A stretch of 64,000 nucleotides of DNA from Escherichia coli (GTDB taxonomy: Bacteria > Pseudomonadota > Gammaproteobacteria > Enterobacterales > Enterobacteriaceae): the NCBI RefSeq assembly GCF_003018255.1, contig NZ_CP027440.1; one strand, given 5' to 3'. Positions 3,136 to 61,094 of this stretch are shown piece after piece; the stretch's first letter is position 1; each line of letters begins with the position of its first letter. Under the pieces are notes generated by a model. The model searched no databases. It had not been told where the DNA came from and was given only the letters and a program-made list of their open reading frames with translations. The translations under genes were made by a program, and so were the position numbers.

Positions 3136-4265
3136 GCAACGGCATTGTGATCATTGGTTCGGGCTTCGCCGCCCGCCAACTGGTGAAAAATATTCGCAAA
3201 CAGGACGCCTGTATTCCATTAACCCTGATTGCCGCCGACAGCATGGATGAGTACAACAAACCGGACCTCAGCCATGTTATCAGCCAGAGGCAACGTGCCG
3301 ATGACCTTACCCGCCAGACGGCGGGTGAATTTGCCGAGCAGTTTAATCTGCACCTGTTTCCGCACACCTGGGTAACGGATATCGATGCCGAAGCCCATGT
3401 GGTGAAAAGTCAGAATAATCAGTGGCAATACGACAAGTTAGTGCTGGCAACCGGTGCCAGCGCCTTTGTCCCGCCAGTGCCCGGGCGTGAGTTAATGCTG
3501 ACGTTAAATAGTCAGCAAGAGTATCGCGCCTGTGAAACGCAACTGCGGAATGCCCGACGCGTGTTGATTGTTGGCGGTGGCTTGATTGGTAGCGAACTGG
3601 CGATGGATTTTTGTCGTGCAGGCAAAGCGGTCACGCTAATCGACAACGCTGCCAGTATTCTGGCAGCGTTAATGCCACCGGAAGTAAGCAGCCGCTTGCA
3701 GCATCGGTTGACGGAGATGGGCGTTCATCTGCTGTTAAAATCTCAGTTGCAGGGGCTGGAAAAAACGGATTCTGGCATTCTGGCAACGCTGGACCGCCAG
3801 CGCAGCATCGAAGTGGATGCGGTAATTGCCGCCACCGGACTGCGCCCGGAAACCGCCCTGGCACGACGCGCCGGGCTGACGATTAATCGCGGCGTTTGCG
3901 TCGATAGTTATCTGCAAACCAGTAATGCCGATATTTATGCGCTGGGCGATTGCGCGGAAATTAACGGTCAGGTATTGCCGTTCCTCCAGCCGATTCAACT
4001 TAGCGCGATGGTGCTGGCAAAAAATCTTCTCGGCAATAACACGCCGCTGAAACTCCCGGCGATGCTGGTGAAAATCAAAACGCCGGAATTACCGCTGCAT
4101 CTGGCAGGCGAAACCCAGCGTCAGGATTTACGCTGGCAAATTAATACCGAACGCCAGGGAATGGTGGCGCGCGGTGTTGATGATGCCGACCAGCTTCGCG
4201 CCTTTGTGGTCAGTGAGGATCGGATGAAAGAGGCGTTTGGATTGTTGAAAACGTTGCCGGTGTAG
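3132..4265 (+). CDS. norW: NADH:flavorubredoxin reductase
   Basis: ORF track 377 aa; FAD/NAD dinucleotide-binding GxGxxG motifs ([16 protein letters not shown]); 4-nt overlap with norV stop. Confidence 0.95.
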
Positions 4266-50333: not shown

Positions 50334-50365
50334 TAAGTGATATCCATCATCGCATCCAGTGCGCC

Positions 50366-51188
50366 CGGTTTATCCCCGCTGACGCGGGGAACACACATGA
50401 ATGTCGGTTCAGACCGTGTTTTTACCCGGTTTATCCCCGCTGGCGCGGGGAACACGAGGCTGAACAGGGAGGGGGCTACCGGCACAGCGGTTTATCCCCG
50501 CTGGCGCGGGGAACACTTGCCAACCGCCAAAGACTGGAAAACCAATCTCGGTTTATCCCCGCTGGCGCGGGGAACACTTAAACTTGCCGCCGGTATGGGG
50601 GGAACGGGCCGGTTTATCCCCGCTGGCGCGGGGAACTCGTTTCGCGTCGATCGCCTTTTGCGCAATCGCGCCGGTTTATCCCCGCTGGCGCGGGGAACTC
50701 TTTCTTTTTCCATTTAAGTTATTCTAATACCCCGGTTTATCCCCGCTGGCGCGGGGAACTCGATCATGCCTTACTAAAAGGTCCGCTGACGGGCGGTTTA
50801 TCCCCGCTGGCGCGGGGAACTCATCATGACAAAAAGTTACGCTCATCTATTCAACGGTTTATCCCCGCTGGCGCGGGGAACTCTCCATATGTTGCCCCGC
50901 TCGGGACAACACCCCCGGTTTATCCCCGCTGGCGCGGGGAACTCTTAGCGCCGACAAAAGAAGTTGCGGATAACAGCGGTTTATCCCCGCTGGCGCGGGG
51001 AACTCGCCCGTTCCCAGGGAGTGCGGCTCCACCCCCGCGGTTTATCCCCGCTGACGCGGGGAACTCTTCAGTTTCACACTCGGTAATGCCGTTATTTACG
51101 GTTTATCCCCGCTGGCGCGGGGAACTCCTCGGGGCCAGCCTCCCCCATTAACCCGGCACCGGTTTATCCCCGCTGGCGCGGGGAACTC
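50366..51188 (-). CRISPR. Type I-E CRISPR array, 14 direct repeats of 29 bp (plus-strand form CGGTTTATCCCCGCTGGCGCGGGGAACTC) separated by 13 spacers of 32-33 bp; transcribed on the minus strand from the leader at 51189-51293
   Basis: Repeats located by eye at 50366, 50427, 50488, 50549, 50610, 50672, 50733, 50794, 50855, 50916, 50977, 51038, 51099, 51160 (61-62 bp period); repeat is reverse complement of the I-E repeat GAGTTCCCCGCGCCAGCGGGGATAAACCG; adjacent cas2-cas1. Confidence 0.97.
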
Positions 51189-51293
51189 TCTAAAAGTATA
51201 CATTTGTTCTTAAAGCATTTTTTCCCATAAAAACAACCCACCAACCTTAATGTAACATTTCCTTATTATTAAAGATCAGCTAATTCTTTGTTT
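51189..51293 (-). promoter_or_regulatory. CRISPR leader (AT-rich) between last repeat and cas2 stop
   Basis: About 105 bp AT-rich sequence (..AAAGTATACATTTGTTCTTAAAGCATTTTTTCCCATAAAAACAACC..) directly abutting repeat 14, located at the cas2-proximal end. Confidence 0.85.
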
Positions 51294-56863: not shown

Positions 56864-57277
56864 TTGTTCTCCTTCATATGCTCCGACATTTCTCCTGCAT
56901 TTCTATGCGTCGGCACACTTCCGTTATCGGTAAAAACAAAGAAAAAATACGGCGTAATTAATTCAATAATCACATTCACTGCAAAAATATATTCATTGGT
57001 TTAATACAATTAACCTATACATATATTAAGATGTGTTGAATTGTTTAAAGACAATAATGCATGCATTTCAAATCTGCAAGTTATTCGTTTTATTATCAAA
57101 GAAATTTTTAGTTATAATAATTACCATAAATTTTATTACATAAAATATTCATACTGTGAATATAAAATCTCATACCGGGAAATTAAAAGAAGATGTACAT
57201 TGTGCACTTTCCCTACTTAAGTAGGGATAAACCGTTATTGGTCTTGTTATCGTCATTGATACCAATCATTCCCGAAG
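56864..57277 (-). promoter_or_regulatory. AT-rich cas3-cse1 intergenic region expected to carry the Cascade operon promoter (Pcas) and H-NS/LeuO control sites
   Basis: 414 bp strongly AT-rich non-coding stretch directly upstream of cse1; regulatory assignment is from established E. coli knowledge, exact promoter positions not determined here. Confidence 0.6.
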
Positions 57278-59944
57278 TTATTTGGGATTTGCAGGGATGA
57301 CTCTGGTCATCCCTTCATCCCGAGTGTAGGTAATAACAATATTATTACCCTGCCAGATCCATCCATCCTGATTCTGTTTCCCTTCCAGCCAAAGTAACCC
57401 ATCTTCATCTACTACTTCAGAAAAATTACGTTTCCAGGTGAAGGGTACATTGACGCGATTAAGTGCTAACGCCTCATACTGCTGTTCATGACTTAGGTCC
57501 TCGTAGACCTGGCCATCGAGCAGTTGTTTACCTGAAGACGTTTGTAAATAAGGCAATAATGGCAGGCTCATTTCCCCATCCCTCGTTACCGCAAGAATTG
57601 TTTCATCGTTATCCTGCAAGCTATATTCTTCAGCCCACTGCAGAACCTTGCGAGCCTTGAACCTCTTTTCACACTCAGCGCTTTCAAACTTATCCATGCC
57701 TTTGATGACCCATTCTGGCTCATCCATTTCAGCATCATCGTAAATGCTATCCAGCCATTGCCGGTAGGCATCGGGGAAAAATAAGGATGCTCCATTAAGT
57801 TCCTCAATATGTTGCTGCGTCCGCCACATGACTCTAACGTTGCTATAAATATGCTCATGTCGTCCGTAACCTTCGCCATCAGGCAGCAAAACGGTGGCAA
57901 GAGGAACCTCAAAACCAGCGGGACGATATTTGCGATGATGGCGATGTAAACGGCCCAATCGTTGGAAAAGTAAATCTGCGGGGCAATGCTGAGTAATTAA
58001 CCAATCAAAATCAACGTCGAGTGATTGTTCCACGACCTGGGTGGCGACAAGTATCCGTCCAACATTTCGCTTCCCATTTTTGCCGAAATTGCTAATAACT
58101 CGATTCTCTTTTTCACGACGATCGTTCAGCGTAAAGCGCGCATGAAACAAATCTATATCTACTTGCGTGTTATTTAGTTCCTTTAACCGTTGGTGGCATA
58201 GCTGTGCAACATCAACCAAATTGCAGATAAGACAGACTTGTGCACCCGCATTTGCCGCTACGATCATTCGCTCTAACATCCTAAGGTCAGGTAACATGTC
58301 AGCTAAATAAATAGGTTCTGGCCGAATCGAAAAGCGGGGCGGGAGTTGTTCTGAATGAGCTAACAGATCAAAACGTTGTGCACCATTCACACCTCGCCAG
58401 TTAATGAGTGGATATGCGGAGTTATTTTCCTCTGGATCTGTATGCAGACCATAAGTATCCAGAAGTTTCTGTTTTTGTTTCATTGGTAGAGTTGCGGAAA
58501 GAAGAATAACACTCCCCCCCACATCAGCCTGAGCCTTGAGCACAGCCTCCAGCAAGCCGTTCATATACGTGTCGTAAGCATGAACTTCATCAACAATTAA
58601 AACACTTCGACCAATTCCCAAACCACGGATAAAGCGGTGTTTAACTGGCAATACCGATATCAACACCTGATCAATCGTGCAAACGCCGATTTGCCCAAGA
58701 AACACTTTCTTATTGCTTTGTGACAACCACTGACAACACTGAACCCATGCTTCTTCTTGCCCCTGCTCAGTAAATGCGCGTGATTTTATTGATTGAAAAA
58801 GGTGGTTAAAACGTGAATTACCATGAGCAAGAATAAGATTTGGGGAGGTAAATAAACGGCTCGCGTTCGCTTCCATTCTGCTGAGCATTGCATTTGCAGT
58901 AGCTTGTGTAGGGAGGGCAAAAATAACACTATCCGCAAGTTGTTGGTCAATAAGTTTCCAGGCATAGGCCAGCGCAGTTTCAGTTTTACCTGAACCCGTA
59001 GGTGCCTCTATTACCGTCAGCCCGGGCGCTACTGGAAGAGCATCAACTAACACTTGTAATTGTCTGGGTTGATAGCCATTGTCCAGTAGAGCATGAACAC
59101 CTTCATAACATCGCTTATTTGATACAAGGCCGCTCAACTCCAATACCCGGCTCGCATCCTGCTGTCGGTCCTGGAAATACGTTCTTAGAGCATTTATGTT
59201 GGAAGGTGCATCCTCTTTAAACAGAAAGGTATTCGTTGTAGTCCAGGAGCCTAACCAGTCAGCAAGCGAGCAAAAACCTGCTAACAGTGATGAACAATCA
59301 GGTGGTATATCGTTTATAGATAACCCGGCTGGCGTTAAAAATAATGCTTCGAGTACAGATATCCACTCCTCACGAGCCTGTTTATCTTGCGCAGCATAAG
59401 ATGCCAGAGAAGCTGGCATTTCCCAACGCGACTTATCTTGATCCTGGGAATGTAATATAAAACCATGATGTCCTGTAACAGCCTCTACCCATGGAAACCA
59501 GGACTCATAAGGATGAGGAGCGGCATCAAAAAAACTGAAAAAATCCCCGGGAGATTGCTCTGAAAGTGAATCCTGGTTAAACCAATACAGACCGGCTGCA
59601 CCATGATTAAATTTACGGCACATTTGTGTTGATGGACCATTAAGTGATGGCGTTGCAGGATTTAATTTCAGCCAACTTTCTGCTGATTTATATTGGAATC
59701 GTATATCAAACTTTCCGATATCATGAAGGGCAATGAAAAATAACAGCCAGGCTTTCACCTTCTGTTTTGATAGCATTTCATTTCGGCAAAAAGCATTTTG
59801 TAGTACGACTGATTGATCCCACCAGCAATCTGCAACAGCTGCAACATCCAGGCAATGATAAATCAACAGATGAATATCATTTCCTTTCGTCAGGCTTTTT
59901 GAGGATTTCCCCCAGTAATGACATATATATTTAAAAGGTTCCAT
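57278..59944 (-). CDS. cas3: Cas3 HD-nuclease/helicase (type I-E)
   Basis: ORF track 888 aa; HD motif (ALHDIGKFD), Walker A EAPTGSGKTE, DEVH box (LIVDEVHAYD); SD GGGAGG 7 nt upstream of ATG. Confidence 0.96.
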   Translation of the reverse strand: MEPFKYICHYWGKSSKSLTKGNDIHLLIYHCLDVAAVADCWWDQSVVLQNAFCRNEMLSKQKVKAWLLFFIALHDIGKFDIRFQYKSAESWLKLNPATPSLNGPSTQMCRKFNHGAAGLYWFNQDSLSEQSPGDFFSFFDAAPHPYESWFPWVEAVTGHHGFILHSQDQDKSRWEMPASLASYAAQDKQAREEWISVLEALFLTPAGLSINDIPPDCSSLLAGFCSLADWLGSWTTTNTFLFKEDAPSNINALRTYFQDRQQDASRVLELSGLVSNKRCYEGVHALLDNGYQPRQLQVLVDALPVAPGLTVIEAPTGSGKTETALAYAWKLIDQQLADSVIFALPTQATANAMLSRMEANASRLFTSPNLILAHGNSRFNHLFQSIKSRAFTEQGQEEAWVQCCQWLSQSNKKVFLGQIGVCTIDQVLISVLPVKHRFIRGLGIGRSVLIVDEVHAYDTYMNGLLEAVLKAQADVGGSVILLSATLPMKQKQKLLDTYGLHTDPEENNSAYPLINWRGVNGAQRFDLLAHSEQLPPRFSIRPEPIYLADMLPDLRMLERMIVAANAGAQVCLICNLVDVAQLCHQRLKELNNTQVDIDLFHARFTLNDRREKENRVISNFGKNGKRNVGRILVATQVVEQSLDVDFDWLITQHCPADLLFQRLGRLHRHHRKYRPAGFEVPLATVLLPDGEGYGRHEHIYSNVRVMWRTQQHIEELNGASLFFPDAYRQWLDSIYDDAEMDEPEWVIKGMDKFESAECEKRFKARKVLQWAEEYSLQDNDETILAVTRDGEMSLPLLPYLQTSSGKQLLDGQVYEDLSHEQQYEALALNRVNVPFTWKRNFSEVVDEDGLLWLEGKQNQDGWIWQGNNIVITYTRDEGMTRVIPANPK

Positions 59945-60248
59945 TAATAGCCTCCCTGTTTTTTTAGTATTATCGATGATATCAGTGGACTATTTTTCGA
60001 TGCTGCTCATAAATATCGAATTACAGTGATATACACATGTCTTGCCTCCCTGCAAAGAAGAGACTAACATTCGAATTGCTTAGGTTCGAACGCAGGCCTC
60101 AGGTTGATAGAAATATCGCCTGGGGCTTTTGTCCATCTGGAACCTCGCGAATGCTTAACGCCAGACAGCCTCAAGCACCCAACTCCATTCTATACCTGTT
60201 AATTCTCCCTGCGATGTTCACCTTTAAATGCCGGAATGCTGCTCGCAA

Positions 60249-60290
60249 AATAAAAACGCCCCCATCATTTCTGACAGAGGCGTTTAATTT
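60249..60290 (-). terminator. Putative terminator downstream of cysH (end of cysJIH operon)
   Basis: Minus-strand reading: AAACGCC...GGCGTTT 7-bp stem with long loop followed by TTATTTTGCG; weak. Confidence 0.35.
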
Positions 60291-60302
60291 ATCCGGCAAT
60301 AT

Positions 60303-61037
60303 TTACCCTTCGTGTAACCCACATTCCCTTTTTAAGCCAAAGAAACGCGTTTCTTCTTCCGCCATGCCGGGTTCCCATTTACGGGTTGTATGGGTATCAC
60401 CGACCGATAAATATCCTTCGTCCCATAATGGGTGATATTTCAGGCCATGTTTTTGCAGGTACTGATAAATAGTTCGGTTATCCCAGTCGATAATCGGCAG
60501 CACTTTAAATACGCCACGCTGAATTGCCAGCACCGGTAAATTGGCGCGGCTGCCGGATTGTTCACGGCGCAGGCCAGCAAACCAGGTTTGCGCATTCAGT
60601 TCTTTCAGCGCCCGGTTCATCGGTTCGACTTTGTTGATCTCGTTGTACTTCTCAATCCCCTCAACACCCTGCTCCCACAGTTTACCGTAGCGCGCTTCCT
60701 GCCAGGCGGCGCTTTCGGTAGCGCGGTACACTTTCAGGTTGAGCTTGAGTTTGTCCGTTAACTCGTCAATAAAGCGGTAGGTTTCTGGGAACAGATAGCC
60801 GGTATCGGTGAGGATCACCGGAATATCCGGGCGAATCTGATTCACCAGATGCAGGCTCACCGCCGCCTGAATGCCAAAGCTGGAAGAAAGTACATATTCA
60901 CCGGGCAGATTATCCAGCGCCCAGGCAACGCGGCCTTCAGCGTCCAGTTTTTCCAGTTCGGCGTTAGTTTCCGCCAGCGCCAGAATGCGATCTACCTTCG
61001 GCAGTTCGTTCAGGGCGTTTAGATCGAGTTTGGACAT
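60303..61037 (-). CDS. cysH: Phosphoadenosine phosphosulfate (PAPS) reductase
   Basis: ORF track frame 257 aa; start placed at [17 protein letters not shown] (244 aa); C-terminal ECGLH motif. Confidence 0.96.
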
Positions 61038-61057
61038 AGATTCCTCACTGTTTGCCT

Positions 61058-61094
61058 TGCCTGATGCGACGCTCACGCGTCTTATCAGGCCTAC
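61058..61094. repeat. REP element between cysH and cysI
   Basis: GCCTGATGCGACGCTCACGCGTCTTATCAGGCCTAC. Confidence 0.8.

What the first reader, a model, noticed from the sequence alone, without database searches (positions are those of the whole stretch)
59945..60302. 358-bp non-coding gap between cas3 and cysH: possible small RNA or toxin-antitoxin remnant
No credible protein gene fits this gap; the 132-aa ORF at 60037-60435 runs antisense into cysH and looks spurious. From memory, K-12 annotations place a small antisense RNA (sokX, of a degenerate hok/sok-type locus) between cas3 and cysH. I looked for an intact Hok-like peptide of about 50 aa in all frames and did not find one. The region contains short palindromes (TTCGAA..TTCGAA) and a hairpin plus T-tract that could end cysH transcription.
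Basis: partly seen in the sequence, partly recalled or inferred. Interest (0 to 1): 0.35.

Follow-up and report, generated by a model that had tools for sequence, protein, structure and literature searches.

The report
Toxin-less hok/sok remnant (sokX)
The gap between cas3 and cysH holds the known E. coli "sokX" locus: the front half of a small toxin-antitoxin cassette that lost its toxin gene when the K-12-type CRISPR-Cas block arrived, sitting between the cysH terminator and the cas3 promoter region. It is ordinary and already described.

Summary
The 358-bp gap (59945-60302) is not empty spacer.

- **RNA family match.** Its central part (60180-60024, minus strand) matches Rfam RF01794 (hok/sok) at 104 bits, E 2.6e-24. 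This is the only Rfam hit in the 64-kb window.
- **Known gene.** K-12 MG1655 annotates ncRNA sokX (b4701) at the equivalent of 60078-60136 (+). The window copy is 56/59 identical.
- **Population.** About 4,200 of 5,426 complete E. coli genomes carry an intact 50-aa Hok/Gef gene at this spot. The 1,102 genomes with K-12-type ("E2") cas3 lose homology immediately after the hok ATG (60038-60036).
- **What is left.** The hok promoter, the structured leader, a mok-like upstream ORF, the hok ribosome-binding site and ATG, and the complete sokX gene with its promoter and terminator.
- **What is gone.** The toxin coding sequence and the 3' fold-back element.
- **Flanks.** The cysJIH terminator (60285-60247), and a 91-bp E2-specific segment with the published CRP site upstream of cas3.

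All of this is in the literature (Almendros 2014; a 2025 UPEC survey). One idea remains untested: hok-promoter transcripts may read into cas3 and be targeted by SokX.

The parts
60247..60285 (-). Intrinsic terminator of the cysJIH operon. Sequence: AAACGCCTCTGTCAGAAATGATGGGGGCGTTT plus TTATTTT.
   Evidence: It is the only terminator-like site in 59850-60400 (14 pairs; 0.3 expected by chance). The sub-threshold Rfam hits ctRNA_p42d, PyrR, Spot42 and PyrG leader all sit on this hairpin. It is nearly invariant across the five E. coli arrangements aligned. The cysH-proximal 64 bp, which include it, are 100% identical even in an IS1-disrupted strain (H30).
60181..60246 (-). hokX promoter region. 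The -10 hexamer TAGAAT is at 60192-60187. The -35 is poor. The inferred transcription start is G at 60180.
   Evidence: The TAGAAT positions are invariant or nearly so in 18 loci from Escherichia, Citrobacter and Klebsiella. Conservation then starts abruptly at GGGTGCTTGAGGCT, which is also position 1 of the Rfam model. The consensus scan did not call this promoter, so both the promoter and the start site are inferred, not shown.
60036..60180 (-). hokX mRNA leader. It comprises the 5' element GGGUGCUUGAGG, three hairpins, the Sok target region, a mok-like upstream ORF start, the Shine-Dalgarno sequence GGGAGG and the hok ATG (60038-60036).
   Evidence: Rfam RF01794 matches at 104.4 bits, E 2.6e-24, with the full model 1-157 aligned over 60180-60024. 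The consensus fold of 18 orthologues has 5 pairs with compensatory changes. This stretch lies inside the 267 bp (60036-60302) that are 99.6% identical to a strain with an intact hok (H7).
60078..60136 (+). sokX gene: a 59-nt cis-antisense RNA complementary to leader positions 45-103.
   Evidence: It is positionally equivalent to MG1655 ncRNA sokX b4701 (2887353-2887411, +) and 56/59 identical to it. It folds into a single-stranded 5' tail, a hairpin and the tail CUUUUGU (-23 kcal/mol, z -3.5).
60042..60070 (+). sokX promoter: -35 TTGCCT (60042-60047), a 17-bp spacer, -10 TAACAT (60065-60070), then 7 nt to the start at G 60078.
   Evidence: Every base is invariant in 18 loci and in all 16 E2-type loci examined. 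It matches 8 of 12 consensus positions, below the scan's threshold of 9. Its activity is therefore inferred from the annotated K-12 5' end.
59990..60070 (-). mok-like upstream ORF. In intact loci it has 12 codons and ends in a TGA overlapping the hok ATG (ATGCTGA). Here it runs on for 26 codons (MLVSSLQGGKTCVYHCNSIFMSSIEK) because the junction removed that stop.
   Evidence: ORF list, translation, comparison with intact loci. No Pfam match. Its role in translational coupling is inferred by analogy with mok of plasmid R1.
60021..60038 (-). Residual hok reading frame: ATG TGT ATA TCA CTG TAA (MCISL*). The truncation junction lies between 60036 and 60035.
   Evidence: Homology to hok-bearing genomes stops at query position 92, which is window 60036. 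The junction is seen base by base in alignment A1. The same 5-codon frame is found in L025.
59945..60035 (-). 91-bp segment specific to the K-12-type (E2) cas block. It holds the CRP core site TATGAGCAGCATCGAA (60011-59996), a candidate -10 GATAAT (59974-59969) and the cas3 Shine-Dalgarno sequence GGGAGG (59956-59951).
   Evidence: It is present in only 1,102 of 5,426 genomes, and in every one inspected it accompanies the 888-aa cas3. The CRP footprint ATGAGCAG-N7-AAATAGCCCGCTG was published for MG1655 (PMC7019758). The core is unchanged here; two flanking bases differ (59989 and 59986). The -10 assignment and the roughly -41.5 spacing are my inference.

Best explanation
The gap holds the known sokX locus: a chromosomal hok/sok type I toxin-antitoxin cassette (hokX/sokX, resident next to cysH in Escherichia) that has lost its toxin.

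**How it arose.** When the K-12-type (E2) type I-E cas block replaced the neighbouring DNA, the exchange ended immediately after the hok start codon. This removed hok codons 2-50, the 3' fold-back (fbi) element and the hok terminator. In their place it put 91 bp carrying the cas3 CRP site and ribosome-binding site.

**What survives on the minus strand.** The cysJIH terminator, the weak hok promoter, and the 142-nt structured leader with its mok-like upstream ORF, Shine-Dalgarno sequence and ATG.

**What survives on the plus strand.** A complete sokX gene: its own promoter, a 59-nt RNA with a single-stranded 5' tail, a hairpin and a U-tail.

**How it works.** In toxin-bearing relatives, Sok pairs with the leader just upstream of the small ORF. 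This blocks the translation to which hok translation is coupled and marks the mRNA for RNase III. Here SokX is still made but has no toxin to silence. The locus is an orphan antitoxin with no toxin-antitoxin activity, flanked by two ordinary signals.

**Shown versus inferred.**
- Shown here: family match, junction, loss of the coding sequence, and conservation of the remaining elements.
- From the literature: SokX expression in K-12 and CRP binding.
- Inferred by analogy with plasmid R1 hok/sok: promoter assignments, the start at 60180, the pairing and RNase III mechanism, and the single-event origin.
For: **Family and identity**
- Rfam hok/sok hit at 104.4 bits (gathering score 59), E 2.6e-24, full-length. 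It is the only family hit in the window.
- MG1655 annotates sokX b4701 at the homologous coordinates, and the RNA is 56/59 identical.

**Population**
- The full gap is in 1,102 of 5,426 genomes.
- hokX coding DNA is in 4,221 of 5,426 genomes.
- In strains without cas genes and in strains with the other cas3 variant, a 153-nt Hok/Gef CDS (WP_000956458.1) sits exactly where the window's homology stops. That protein matches Pfam PF01848 at 39 bits.

**Junction**
- It is identical in all 19 metagenome contigs and in every E2 genome examined, despite different cysH-side haplotypes.
- 15 of the 16 species-representative loci that carry the Shine-Dalgarno-ATG 20-mer keep a 50-aa hok.

**Toxin loss**
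- No Hok remnant is found by tblastn.
- The intact locus has a 3' sequence, GGCCUCCUGCACCC before the U-run, that pairs with the 5' end. The window lacks it.

**Structure and conservation**
- SokX folds as a 5' tail plus a terminator hairpin.
- Five leader pairs show compensatory changes.
- The sok promoter and the upstream-ORF region are invariant.

**Literature**
- hok/sok is present in all strains except those with E2 (PMC3903273).
- Some strains carry sokX only, like K-12 (PMC12736100).
- The locus is named hokX (PMC7232551).
- SokX was detected in all conditions tested.
- SokX overexpression gave no phenotype in the biofilm, motility and fimbriae screens.
Against: - Nothing in the sequence contradicts the identification.
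- The functional half of the statement ("nothing left to do") is an argument from absence. The remnant shows no sign of decay: in 14 of 16 E2-type loci it carries substitutions only, none of them in the sok promoter hexamers, the upstream ORF or the Shine-Dalgarno sequence. This could reflect a recent origin and recombination with intact alleles, or it could reflect retained function.
- Neither promoter reaches the scan's consensus threshold.
- No transcript data for this strain were available.
Confidence: 0.9

Rival explanations
1. The remnant has been co-opted as part of cas3 expression control. Transcripts started at the hok promoter (about 60180) would meet no terminator, so they would continue through the leader into cas3, giving a cas3 mRNA with a 236-nt 5' UTR. 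SokX would pair with that UTR, trigger RNase III cleavage, and so damp or insulate cas3 from this upstream transcription.
For: - No terminator-like site lies on the minus strand between 60180 and the cas3 ATG.
- The natural hok terminator and fbi element were deleted.
- In the other cas3 variant, the hok terminator still separates hok from cas3.
- The hok -10, the leader and sokX are fully preserved in E2 strains.
- The cas3 transcription start has not been mapped in the papers I could read. Only a predicted promoter is mentioned, and in 2016 the controlling factors were described as unidentified.
- Expression levels of cas3 are reported to be an important limiting factor for resistance to phage.
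Against: - There is no direct evidence at all.
- cas3 brings its own CRP-dependent promoter region within the 91-bp segment, and mutating the CRP site cut reporter activity about 3.5-fold.
- hok promoters are known to be weak (established knowledge of plasmid R1 hok/sok).
- Conservation is equally explained by the young age of the junction and by recombination with intact alleles.
- No held paper that mentions sokX links it functionally to cas3.
Confidence: 0.08
2. SokX is kept because it acts in trans, neutralising hokX-type mRNAs that arrive by recombination or transfer, or other chromosomal hok paralogues. In effect it would be an anti-addiction module.
For: - The sokX gene and its promoter are intact.
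- Most other E. coli carry a hokX whose leader is nearly identical.
Against: - The 5' recognition stretch of SokX, which is the loop of the target hairpin, is the most variable part of the locus even within E. coli (CCTAAGC, CCCAAAC, CGT-AGC). Such variation is usually read as keeping antisense pairs specific.
- There are no data on cross-reaction.
- Overexpression gave no phenotype in the screens reported.
Confidence: 0.04
3. The gap is plain spacer holding only the cysH terminator and the cas3 promoter, and the RNA-family similarity is coincidental.
For: Both flanking signals are really there.
Against: - The Rfam E-value is 1.3e-22 for the whole window.
- The region is homologous base for base to hok-bearing loci up to the ATG.
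- K-12 carries the sokX annotation.
Confidence: 0.01
4. A protein gene hides in the gap: the 132-aa plus-strand ORF (60037-60435), or a still-toxic small peptide.
For: An open frame of 132 codons exists, and a 26-codon frame follows the mok-like ATG.
Against: - The 132-aa ORF is antisense to cysH and the hok leader. It has no family match above threshold and is not annotated in any of the four RefSeq genomes with this arrangement that I inspected.
- The residual hok frame is 5 codons long.
- The 26-aa frame is an accident of the junction and has no transmembrane Hok-like sequence.
Confidence: 0.01

Closest known systems
sokX (b4701) of E. coli K-12 MG1655, between cas3 and cysH
   Same: - It has the same position, strand and length: 59 nt on the plus strand, in a 358-bp gap.
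- It has the same truncation junction after the hok ATG.
- The RNA is 56/59 identical.
   Different: - There are three substitutions in the 5' part of the RNA, at 60079, 60082 and 60094.
- The cysH-side promoter region is of a different haplotype. It is closest (99.6%) to a strain with no cas genes and an intact hok.
- Two bases differ next to the CRP core.
Intact hokX/sokX locus next to cysH (E. coli B, O157:H7, ST131 and most E. coli; other Escherichia species)
   Same: The hok promoter -10, leader, upstream ORF start, Shine-Dalgarno sequence, ATG, sok promoter and Sok RNA are the same.
   Different: Those loci continue with a 50-aa Hok/Gef toxin (PF01848), a 3' element that pairs with the 5' end, and a terminator. 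The window has none of these.
hok/sok of plasmid R1, the founding type I toxin-antitoxin system (knowledge of the family, not tested by alignment here)
   Same: - The architecture is the same: a weakly transcribed, structured toxin mRNA.
- Translation is coupled to an upstream ORF.
- A short cis-antisense RNA, with a 5' tail and a terminator hairpin, is made from its own promoter.
- The 5' and 3' ends pair in the full-length mRNA of the intact chromosomal orthologue.
   Different: - There is no nucleotide-level similarity to plasmid loci by blastn. The only hits in the plasmid collection were on records of 67 kb to 5.4 Mb; the strongest were 4.8-5.4 Mb records that look like mislabelled chromosomes, and none was a typical resistance plasmid.
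- The upstream ORF of hokX has only 12 codons rather than overlapping all of hok.
- The locus is chromosomal, and in this window it has no toxin.
Inactivated hokA-hokE loci of E. coli K-12 (Pedersen and Gerdes 1999, as cited in PMC7232551)
   Same: They are also chromosomal hok loci made non-functional by rearrangement while the sok gene persists.
   Different: [quoted passage not shown] Here the coding sequence was removed cleanly by replacement with a cas block.

Membership tests
hok/sok type I toxin-antitoxin locus | Hok/Gef toxin ORF of about 50 aa (Pfam PF01848) | tested here: not met
   tblastn of orthologous Hok against the window gave no hit in or near the gap. The frame after the ATG is 5 codons long. 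The orthologous intact protein matches PF01848 at 39 bits.
hok/sok type I toxin-antitoxin locus | Structured hok mRNA leader / sok region matching the Rfam covariance model RF01794 above its gathering score | tested here: met
   104.4 bits against a gathering score of 59, E 2.6e-24, model positions 1-157 of 157. Five base pairs show compensatory changes among 18 orthologues.
hok/sok type I toxin-antitoxin locus | Short cis-antisense RNA with its own promoter, a single-stranded 5' recognition tail and a terminator hairpin | tested here: met
   The promoter is TTGCCT, 17 bp, TAACAT, then 7 nt to G 60078. The 59-nt RNA folds as tail plus hairpin plus CUUUUGU, z -3.5. Expression itself could not be tested here; for K-12 it is reported.
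hok/sok type I toxin-antitoxin locus | Upstream (mok-like) reading frame to which toxin translation is coupled | tested here: inconclusive
   An ATG at 60070 opens a frame that, in intact loci, stops at a TGA overlapping the hok ATG, and this stretch is invariant in 18 loci. Coupling is inferred and was not tested. In the window the frame runs on to 26 codons.
hok/sok type I toxin-antitoxin locus | 3' fold-back element pairing with the 5' end of the full-length mRNA | tested here: not met
   It is present in the intact orthologue: GGCCUCCUGCACCC before the U-run forms 6+6 pairs with the 5' end, within a longer predicted duplex of -24.5 kcal/mol. In the window it has been deleted together with the coding sequence.
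hok/sok type I toxin-antitoxin locus | Toxicity of Hok and its rescue by Sok (post-segregational killing or growth arrest) | not testable with these tools
   This needs expression experiments. With no toxin ORF present, it cannot apply to this window.
sokX (b4701) orthologue | Same genomic position (between K-12-type cas3 and cysH), same strand and near-identical sequence | tested here: met
   Shown. The full gap is shared at 95.3-99.7% identity in the E2-type genomes listed (H1-H6), out of 1,102 genomes that hold it.
CRP-activated cas3 promoter region of K-12 (PMC7019758) | CRP core TATGA-N6-TCGAA about 51 nt upstream of the cas3 ORF | tested here: met
   The core is at 60011-59996 and is unchanged; two bases of the extended footprint differ. 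Binding and activation in this strain cannot be tested here.
Intrinsic (Rho-independent) terminator | G+C-rich hairpin followed by a T-run directly after the cysH stop codon | tested here: met
   A 14-pair stem at 60285-60254 is followed by TTATTTT. It is the only such site in the region, against 0.3 expected by chance.

The most novel reading that the evidence does not exclude
In strains with the K-12-type cas block, the decapitated hok leader may now serve as a long alternative 5' UTR of cas3. Transcription from the preserved hok promoter at about 60180 meets no terminator before the cas3 ATG, 236 nt downstream. The constitutive antisense RNA SokX would then pair with this UTR. An orphaned antitoxin RNA would in that case set, or insulate, the level of Cas3, which has been reported as a limiting component of type I-E interference in E. 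coli.
Probability: 0.08. Interest if true: 0.55.

Novelty: already known. Interest (0 to 1): 0.13.

Why it matters
As it stands, this matters little. It is a correct re-identification of an annotated K-12 small RNA and of a published population pattern: hok/sok sits beside cysH in all E. coli except those with the K-12-type cas genes.

It has three practical uses.

- It shows that the Rfam "sok" hit lies on the hok-sense strand, so a naive annotation would put the sRNA on the wrong strand and give it the wrong length.
- It pins the boundary of the CRISPR-Cas module exchange to a single base after the hok ATG. That makes the junction a convenient marker of the E2 lineage.

The locus would bear on how E. 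coli keeps its CRISPR nuclease in check only if the leader/SokX pair turned out to influence cas3 expression.

Tried and rejected
**Searches that added little**
- blastn (distant mode) of the leader against the plasmid collection, to link it to R1-type hok/sok. The strongest matches were to 4.8-5.4 Mb records that look like mislabelled chromosomes. The rest were weak partial matches on large replicons of 67 kb to 1.3 Mb. The best non-Escherichia match was a Klebsiella chromosomal hok beside mutS. Family-level evidence therefore rests on the covariance model.
- The sub-threshold Rfam hits (ctRNA_p42d, PyrG leader, PyrR, Spot 42) all lie on the cysH terminator hairpin and are chance matches to terminators.
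- The sigma-70 scan found only one unconvincing plus-strand site at 59944-59973. It missed both the hok and the sok promoters, which match 8 of 12 consensus positions or fewer.
- Tandem Repeats Finder does not detect the CRISPR array. The repeat finder was needed.

**Attempts to get a mapped cas3, hokX or sokX transcription start for K-12**
- Thomason 2015 is not held.
- Conway 2014 has no supplements held.
- The cas3 papers I could read give no mapped start.

**Searches for a donor context of the 91-bp E2 segment**
- The metagenome scan returned 19 contigs, all with the same hok junction.
- The species-representative genome scan, made with the hok SD-ATG 20-mer, returned one truncated copy, which is a K-12-like contaminant contig.

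**Readings considered and rejected**
- The 132-aa ORF is a real gene.
- A frameshifted Hok remains in the gap.
- The TTCGAA repeats are restriction-type or transposon-end palindromes. They are hairpin arms that covary.

Full report
**1. The observation**

The window is E. coli chromosome. The gene cas3 (888 aa, K-12 type) occupies 57278-59944 on the minus strand, and cysH ends with a TAA at 60305-60303 on the same strand. The gap 59945-60302 is 358 bp, the same length as in K-12 MG1655.

- **The 132-aa plus-strand ORF (60037-60435).** It runs antisense into cysH. It has no family match above threshold and is not annotated in any of the RefSeq genomes with this arrangement that I inspected.
- **Two TTCGAA palindromes**, at 60070-60075 and 60085-60090.
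- **A hairpin plus T-run**, at 60285-60247 directly after cysH. It is the only terminator-like site in the region.

**2. What the central part is**

A covariance-model scan of 59500-60800 against Rfam gave one strong hit. RF01794 (hok/sok) matches 60180-60024 on the minus strand at 104.4 bits, against a gathering score of 59, with E 2.6e-24 and the full-length model aligned. It is the only family that reaches its threshold anywhere in the 64-kb window.

MG1655 annotates ncRNA sokX (b4701) at 2887353-2887411 on the plus strand. This maps to window 60078-60136, where the sequence is 56/59 identical.

The two strands do not conflict. The Rfam model runs from GGGUGCUUGAGG to an AUG preceded by a Shine-Dalgarno sequence, so it describes the hok mRNA leader. 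The Sok RNA is its cis-antisense partner on the other strand. On the plus strand I find:
- a promoter, TTGCCT (60042-60047), 17 bp, TAACAT (60065-60070), then 7 nt to G 60078;
- an RNA that folds into a free 5' tail, a stable hairpin and the tail CUUUUGU (-23 kcal/mol, z -3.5).

On the minus strand the same hairpin is not followed by a U-run.

**3. Where the toxin went**

Megablast of the gap against 5,426 complete E. coli genomes matched 5,425 of them. Only 1,102 hold the whole gap. Most of the rest match only from query position 92, which is window 60036, and there they carry an annotated Hok/Gef protein. Separately, hokX coding DNA is found in 4,221 of 5,426 genomes.

Three arrangements were inspected:
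- iap-hok-cysH with no cas genes (E700025 and ST131);
- the other cas3 variant (899 aa) followed by hok and cysH (O157:H7);
- K-12-type cas3 followed directly by cysH, with no hok (C600, MG1655, an ETEC strain and DETEC-S792).

Alignment A1 shows the breakpoint to the base. All sequences share ...GCAGGGAGGCAAGACATG. The hok-bearing ones then continue CTGACAAAATATGCC..., which encodes the 50-aa protein [50 protein letters not shown]. The window and K-12 continue TGTATATCACTGTAA....

That intact protein matches Pfam PF01848 at 39 bits. In the window the frame after the ATG is MCISL-stop. tblastn with Hok finds nothing in or near the gap.

The intact locus also has a 3' sequence, GGCCUCCUGCACCC before the U-run, that pairs with the 5' end of the mRNA. 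This is the fold-back arrangement known from plasmid R1 hok mRNA (family knowledge). That element and the hok terminator were lost together with the coding sequence.

**4. What was kept, and how well**

Eighteen loci were aligned: three truncated, seven intact Escherichia, three Citrobacter and five Klebsiella. The truncated copies cannot be told apart from toxin-bearing ones over the leader.
- The -10 TAGAAT of the hok promoter (60192-60187) is conserved.
- The first 14 nt of the mRNA are conserved.
- The entire stretch from the upstream-ORF ATG (60070) to the hok ATG is invariant. This stretch also contains the sok promoter on the other strand.
- The consensus fold has five pairs with compensatory changes, including the TTCGAA arms.
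- The loop between those arms, which is the complement of SokX's 5' end, is the most variable part.

Among 16 E2-type loci with a full gap, there are 9 haplotypes. Fourteen differ by substitutions only, none of them in the sok promoter, the upstream ORF or the Shine-Dalgarno sequence. One metagenome contig has an insertion-sequence end at about 60100, inside sokX. Another fuses cysH coding sequence to the leader at about 60156.

The junction itself is identical in all 19 metagenome contigs, although their cysH-side haplotypes differ. I read this as one ancestral event followed by recombination in the flank. That reading is an inference.

**5. The flanks**

*The cysH side.* The 39 nt at 60285-60247 are the cysJIH terminator.

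*The cas3 side.* The 91 bp at 59945-60035 occur only with K-12-type cas3. They hold the CRP core TATGAGCAGCATCGAA at 60011-59996. For MG1655, a DNase I footprint (ATGAGCAG-N7-AAATAGCCCGCTG) and a 3.5-fold loss of reporter activity on mutation have been published (PMC7019758). The core is intact here, and two neighbouring bases differ.

A GATAAT at 59974-59969 would place the CRP site near -41.5. That spacing is my inference, because no mapped cas3 transcription start was available to me.

**6. Mechanism**

In intact relatives the system should work as plasmid R1 hok/sok does (family knowledge, not tested here).
1. A weakly transcribed hok mRNA is kept inert by pairing between its 5' and 3' ends.
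2. After 3' processing, the small upstream ORF is translated and hok translation is coupled to it.
3. Abundant, unstable Sok pairs with the leader and blocks this translation. Here that is leader positions 45-103, ending 8 nt before the upstream-ORF AUG.
4. The resulting duplex is cut by RNase III.

In the window there is nothing left to translate. SokX is therefore an orphan antitoxin.

K-12 data agree with an expressed RNA that has no known role.
- SokX was detected in all conditions tested, without regulation.
- It appears as a structured-RNA signal in Ribo-seq.
- Its overexpression gave no phenotype in the biofilm, motility and fimbriae screens.

**7. Comparison with what is known**

This is already known.
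- Almendros et al. 2014 report that the hok/sok system between iap and cysH is present in all strains except those harbouring the E2 cas variant (PMC3903273).
- A 2025 survey states that 90% of urinary isolates have hok plus sokX beside cysH, and the rest have only sokX, like MG1655 (PMC12736100).
- The toxin is called hokX after E. coli B (PMC7232551).

What I add is detail:
- the exact junction after the ATG;
- the loss of the stop codon of the upstream ORF, which extends that ORF to 26 codons;
- the strand relationship between the Rfam hit and the sRNA;
- the conservation of every remaining element.

**8. What is not excluded**

The deletion removed the hok terminator, so no predicted terminator lies between the hok promoter and cas3. 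A hok-promoter transcript would therefore become a cas3 mRNA with a 236-nt leader that SokX can pair with.

I found no paper that tests or mentions this, and I could not obtain transcription-start data. I give it a probability of about 8%.

**9. Verdict**

The feature is already known, and interest is low.

Noticed in passing
window 50352-51190: A CRISPR array of 14 copies of the type I-E repeat CGGTTTATCCCCGCTGGCGCGGGGAACTC, spaced 61 bp apart, lies at lower coordinates than casA and cas3. I did not examine the genes in between, so I cannot say whether the I-E locus is complete. Neither the Rfam gathering scan nor Tandem Repeats Finder reported it; the repeat finder did.
   Followed up: partly
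window 60078-60095 (+) / alignment A2 columns 120-137: The loop of the Sok-target hairpin, which corresponds to the 5' recognition end of SokX, is the most variable stretch of an otherwise near-invariant leader. Variants seen are CCTAAGC, CCCAAAC and CGT-AGC within E. coli, with others in Citrobacter and Klebsiella. The same alleles occur in truncated and intact loci, which suggests recombination between them.
   Followed up: partly
L034 (metagenome contig QZLN01011555.1) and L037 (PPYE01234067.1): These are two E2-type contigs in which the remnant is further damaged. In L034, the end of an insertion sequence (the C-terminus of a transposase, then the terminal sequence) abuts the locus at about window 60100, inside sokX. 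In L037, cysH coding sequence is joined directly to the leader at about 60156, removing the terminator and the hok promoter. The second could be a real deletion or an assembly artefact.
   Followed up: partly
L004 (E. coli PSJ-42, NZ_AP027652.1) 3159-3985: In a strain with the other cas3 variant, hokX is disrupted by an IS1B insertion, and only its C-terminal part is annotated as a pseudogene. This is a second, independent route to loss of this toxin.
   Followed up: no
L025 (JAEWTL010000007.1, 3.3-kb contig of a MAG labelled Bacillota bacterium): The contig carries the K-12-type hok/cas3 junction and a cas3 that is 96.8% identical in protein to the window's. It is almost certainly E. coli contamination of the metagenome-assembled genome.
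   Followed up: no
plasmid collection records CP125156.1 (5.37 Mb), NZ_CP141089.1 (4.94 Mb), NZ_CP134663.1, NZ_OL790696.1: These records in the plasmid collection are of chromosome size and carry chromosomal genes such as mutS. They appear to be chromosomes mislabelled as plasmids, so the matches do not show that hokX occurs on plasmids.
   Followed up: no
L007 (Klebsiella pneumoniae) 3157-3309; L010, L014, L016, L019-L021, L023: Close hokX homologues, with an identical Shine-Dalgarno-ATG region and a 50-aa Hok, occur in Klebsiella and Citrobacter. None has a cysH match within the DNA held for its locus. In K. pneumoniae the gene lies between a hydroxyarylic acid decarboxylase operon and mutS. 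The cassette may therefore have moved between chromosomal sites, or been acquired independently.
   Followed up: partly
L011 and L017 (Pseudocitrobacter MAG and P. vendiensis type strain): The cysH products here are 98-99.5% identical to the window's CysH, and a hokX gene lies next to them, as in E. coli. This is unexpectedly close for a different genus, and may reflect misclassification or contamination.
   Followed up: no
window 56864-57277: The casA-cas3 intergenic region is very AT-rich (GC 0.34 in 57000-57499). It contains an imperfect 21-bp tandem repeat at 57140-57188. This is the region where the H-NS-silenced Pcas and anti-Pcas promoters are described in K-12.
   Followed up: no
window 60303-61076 (-): The mechanical ORF for cysH starts at an upstream GTG and is 257 aa long. 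The annotated CysH is 244 aa and starts at the ATG at 61037 (MSKLDLNAL...).
   Followed up: yes
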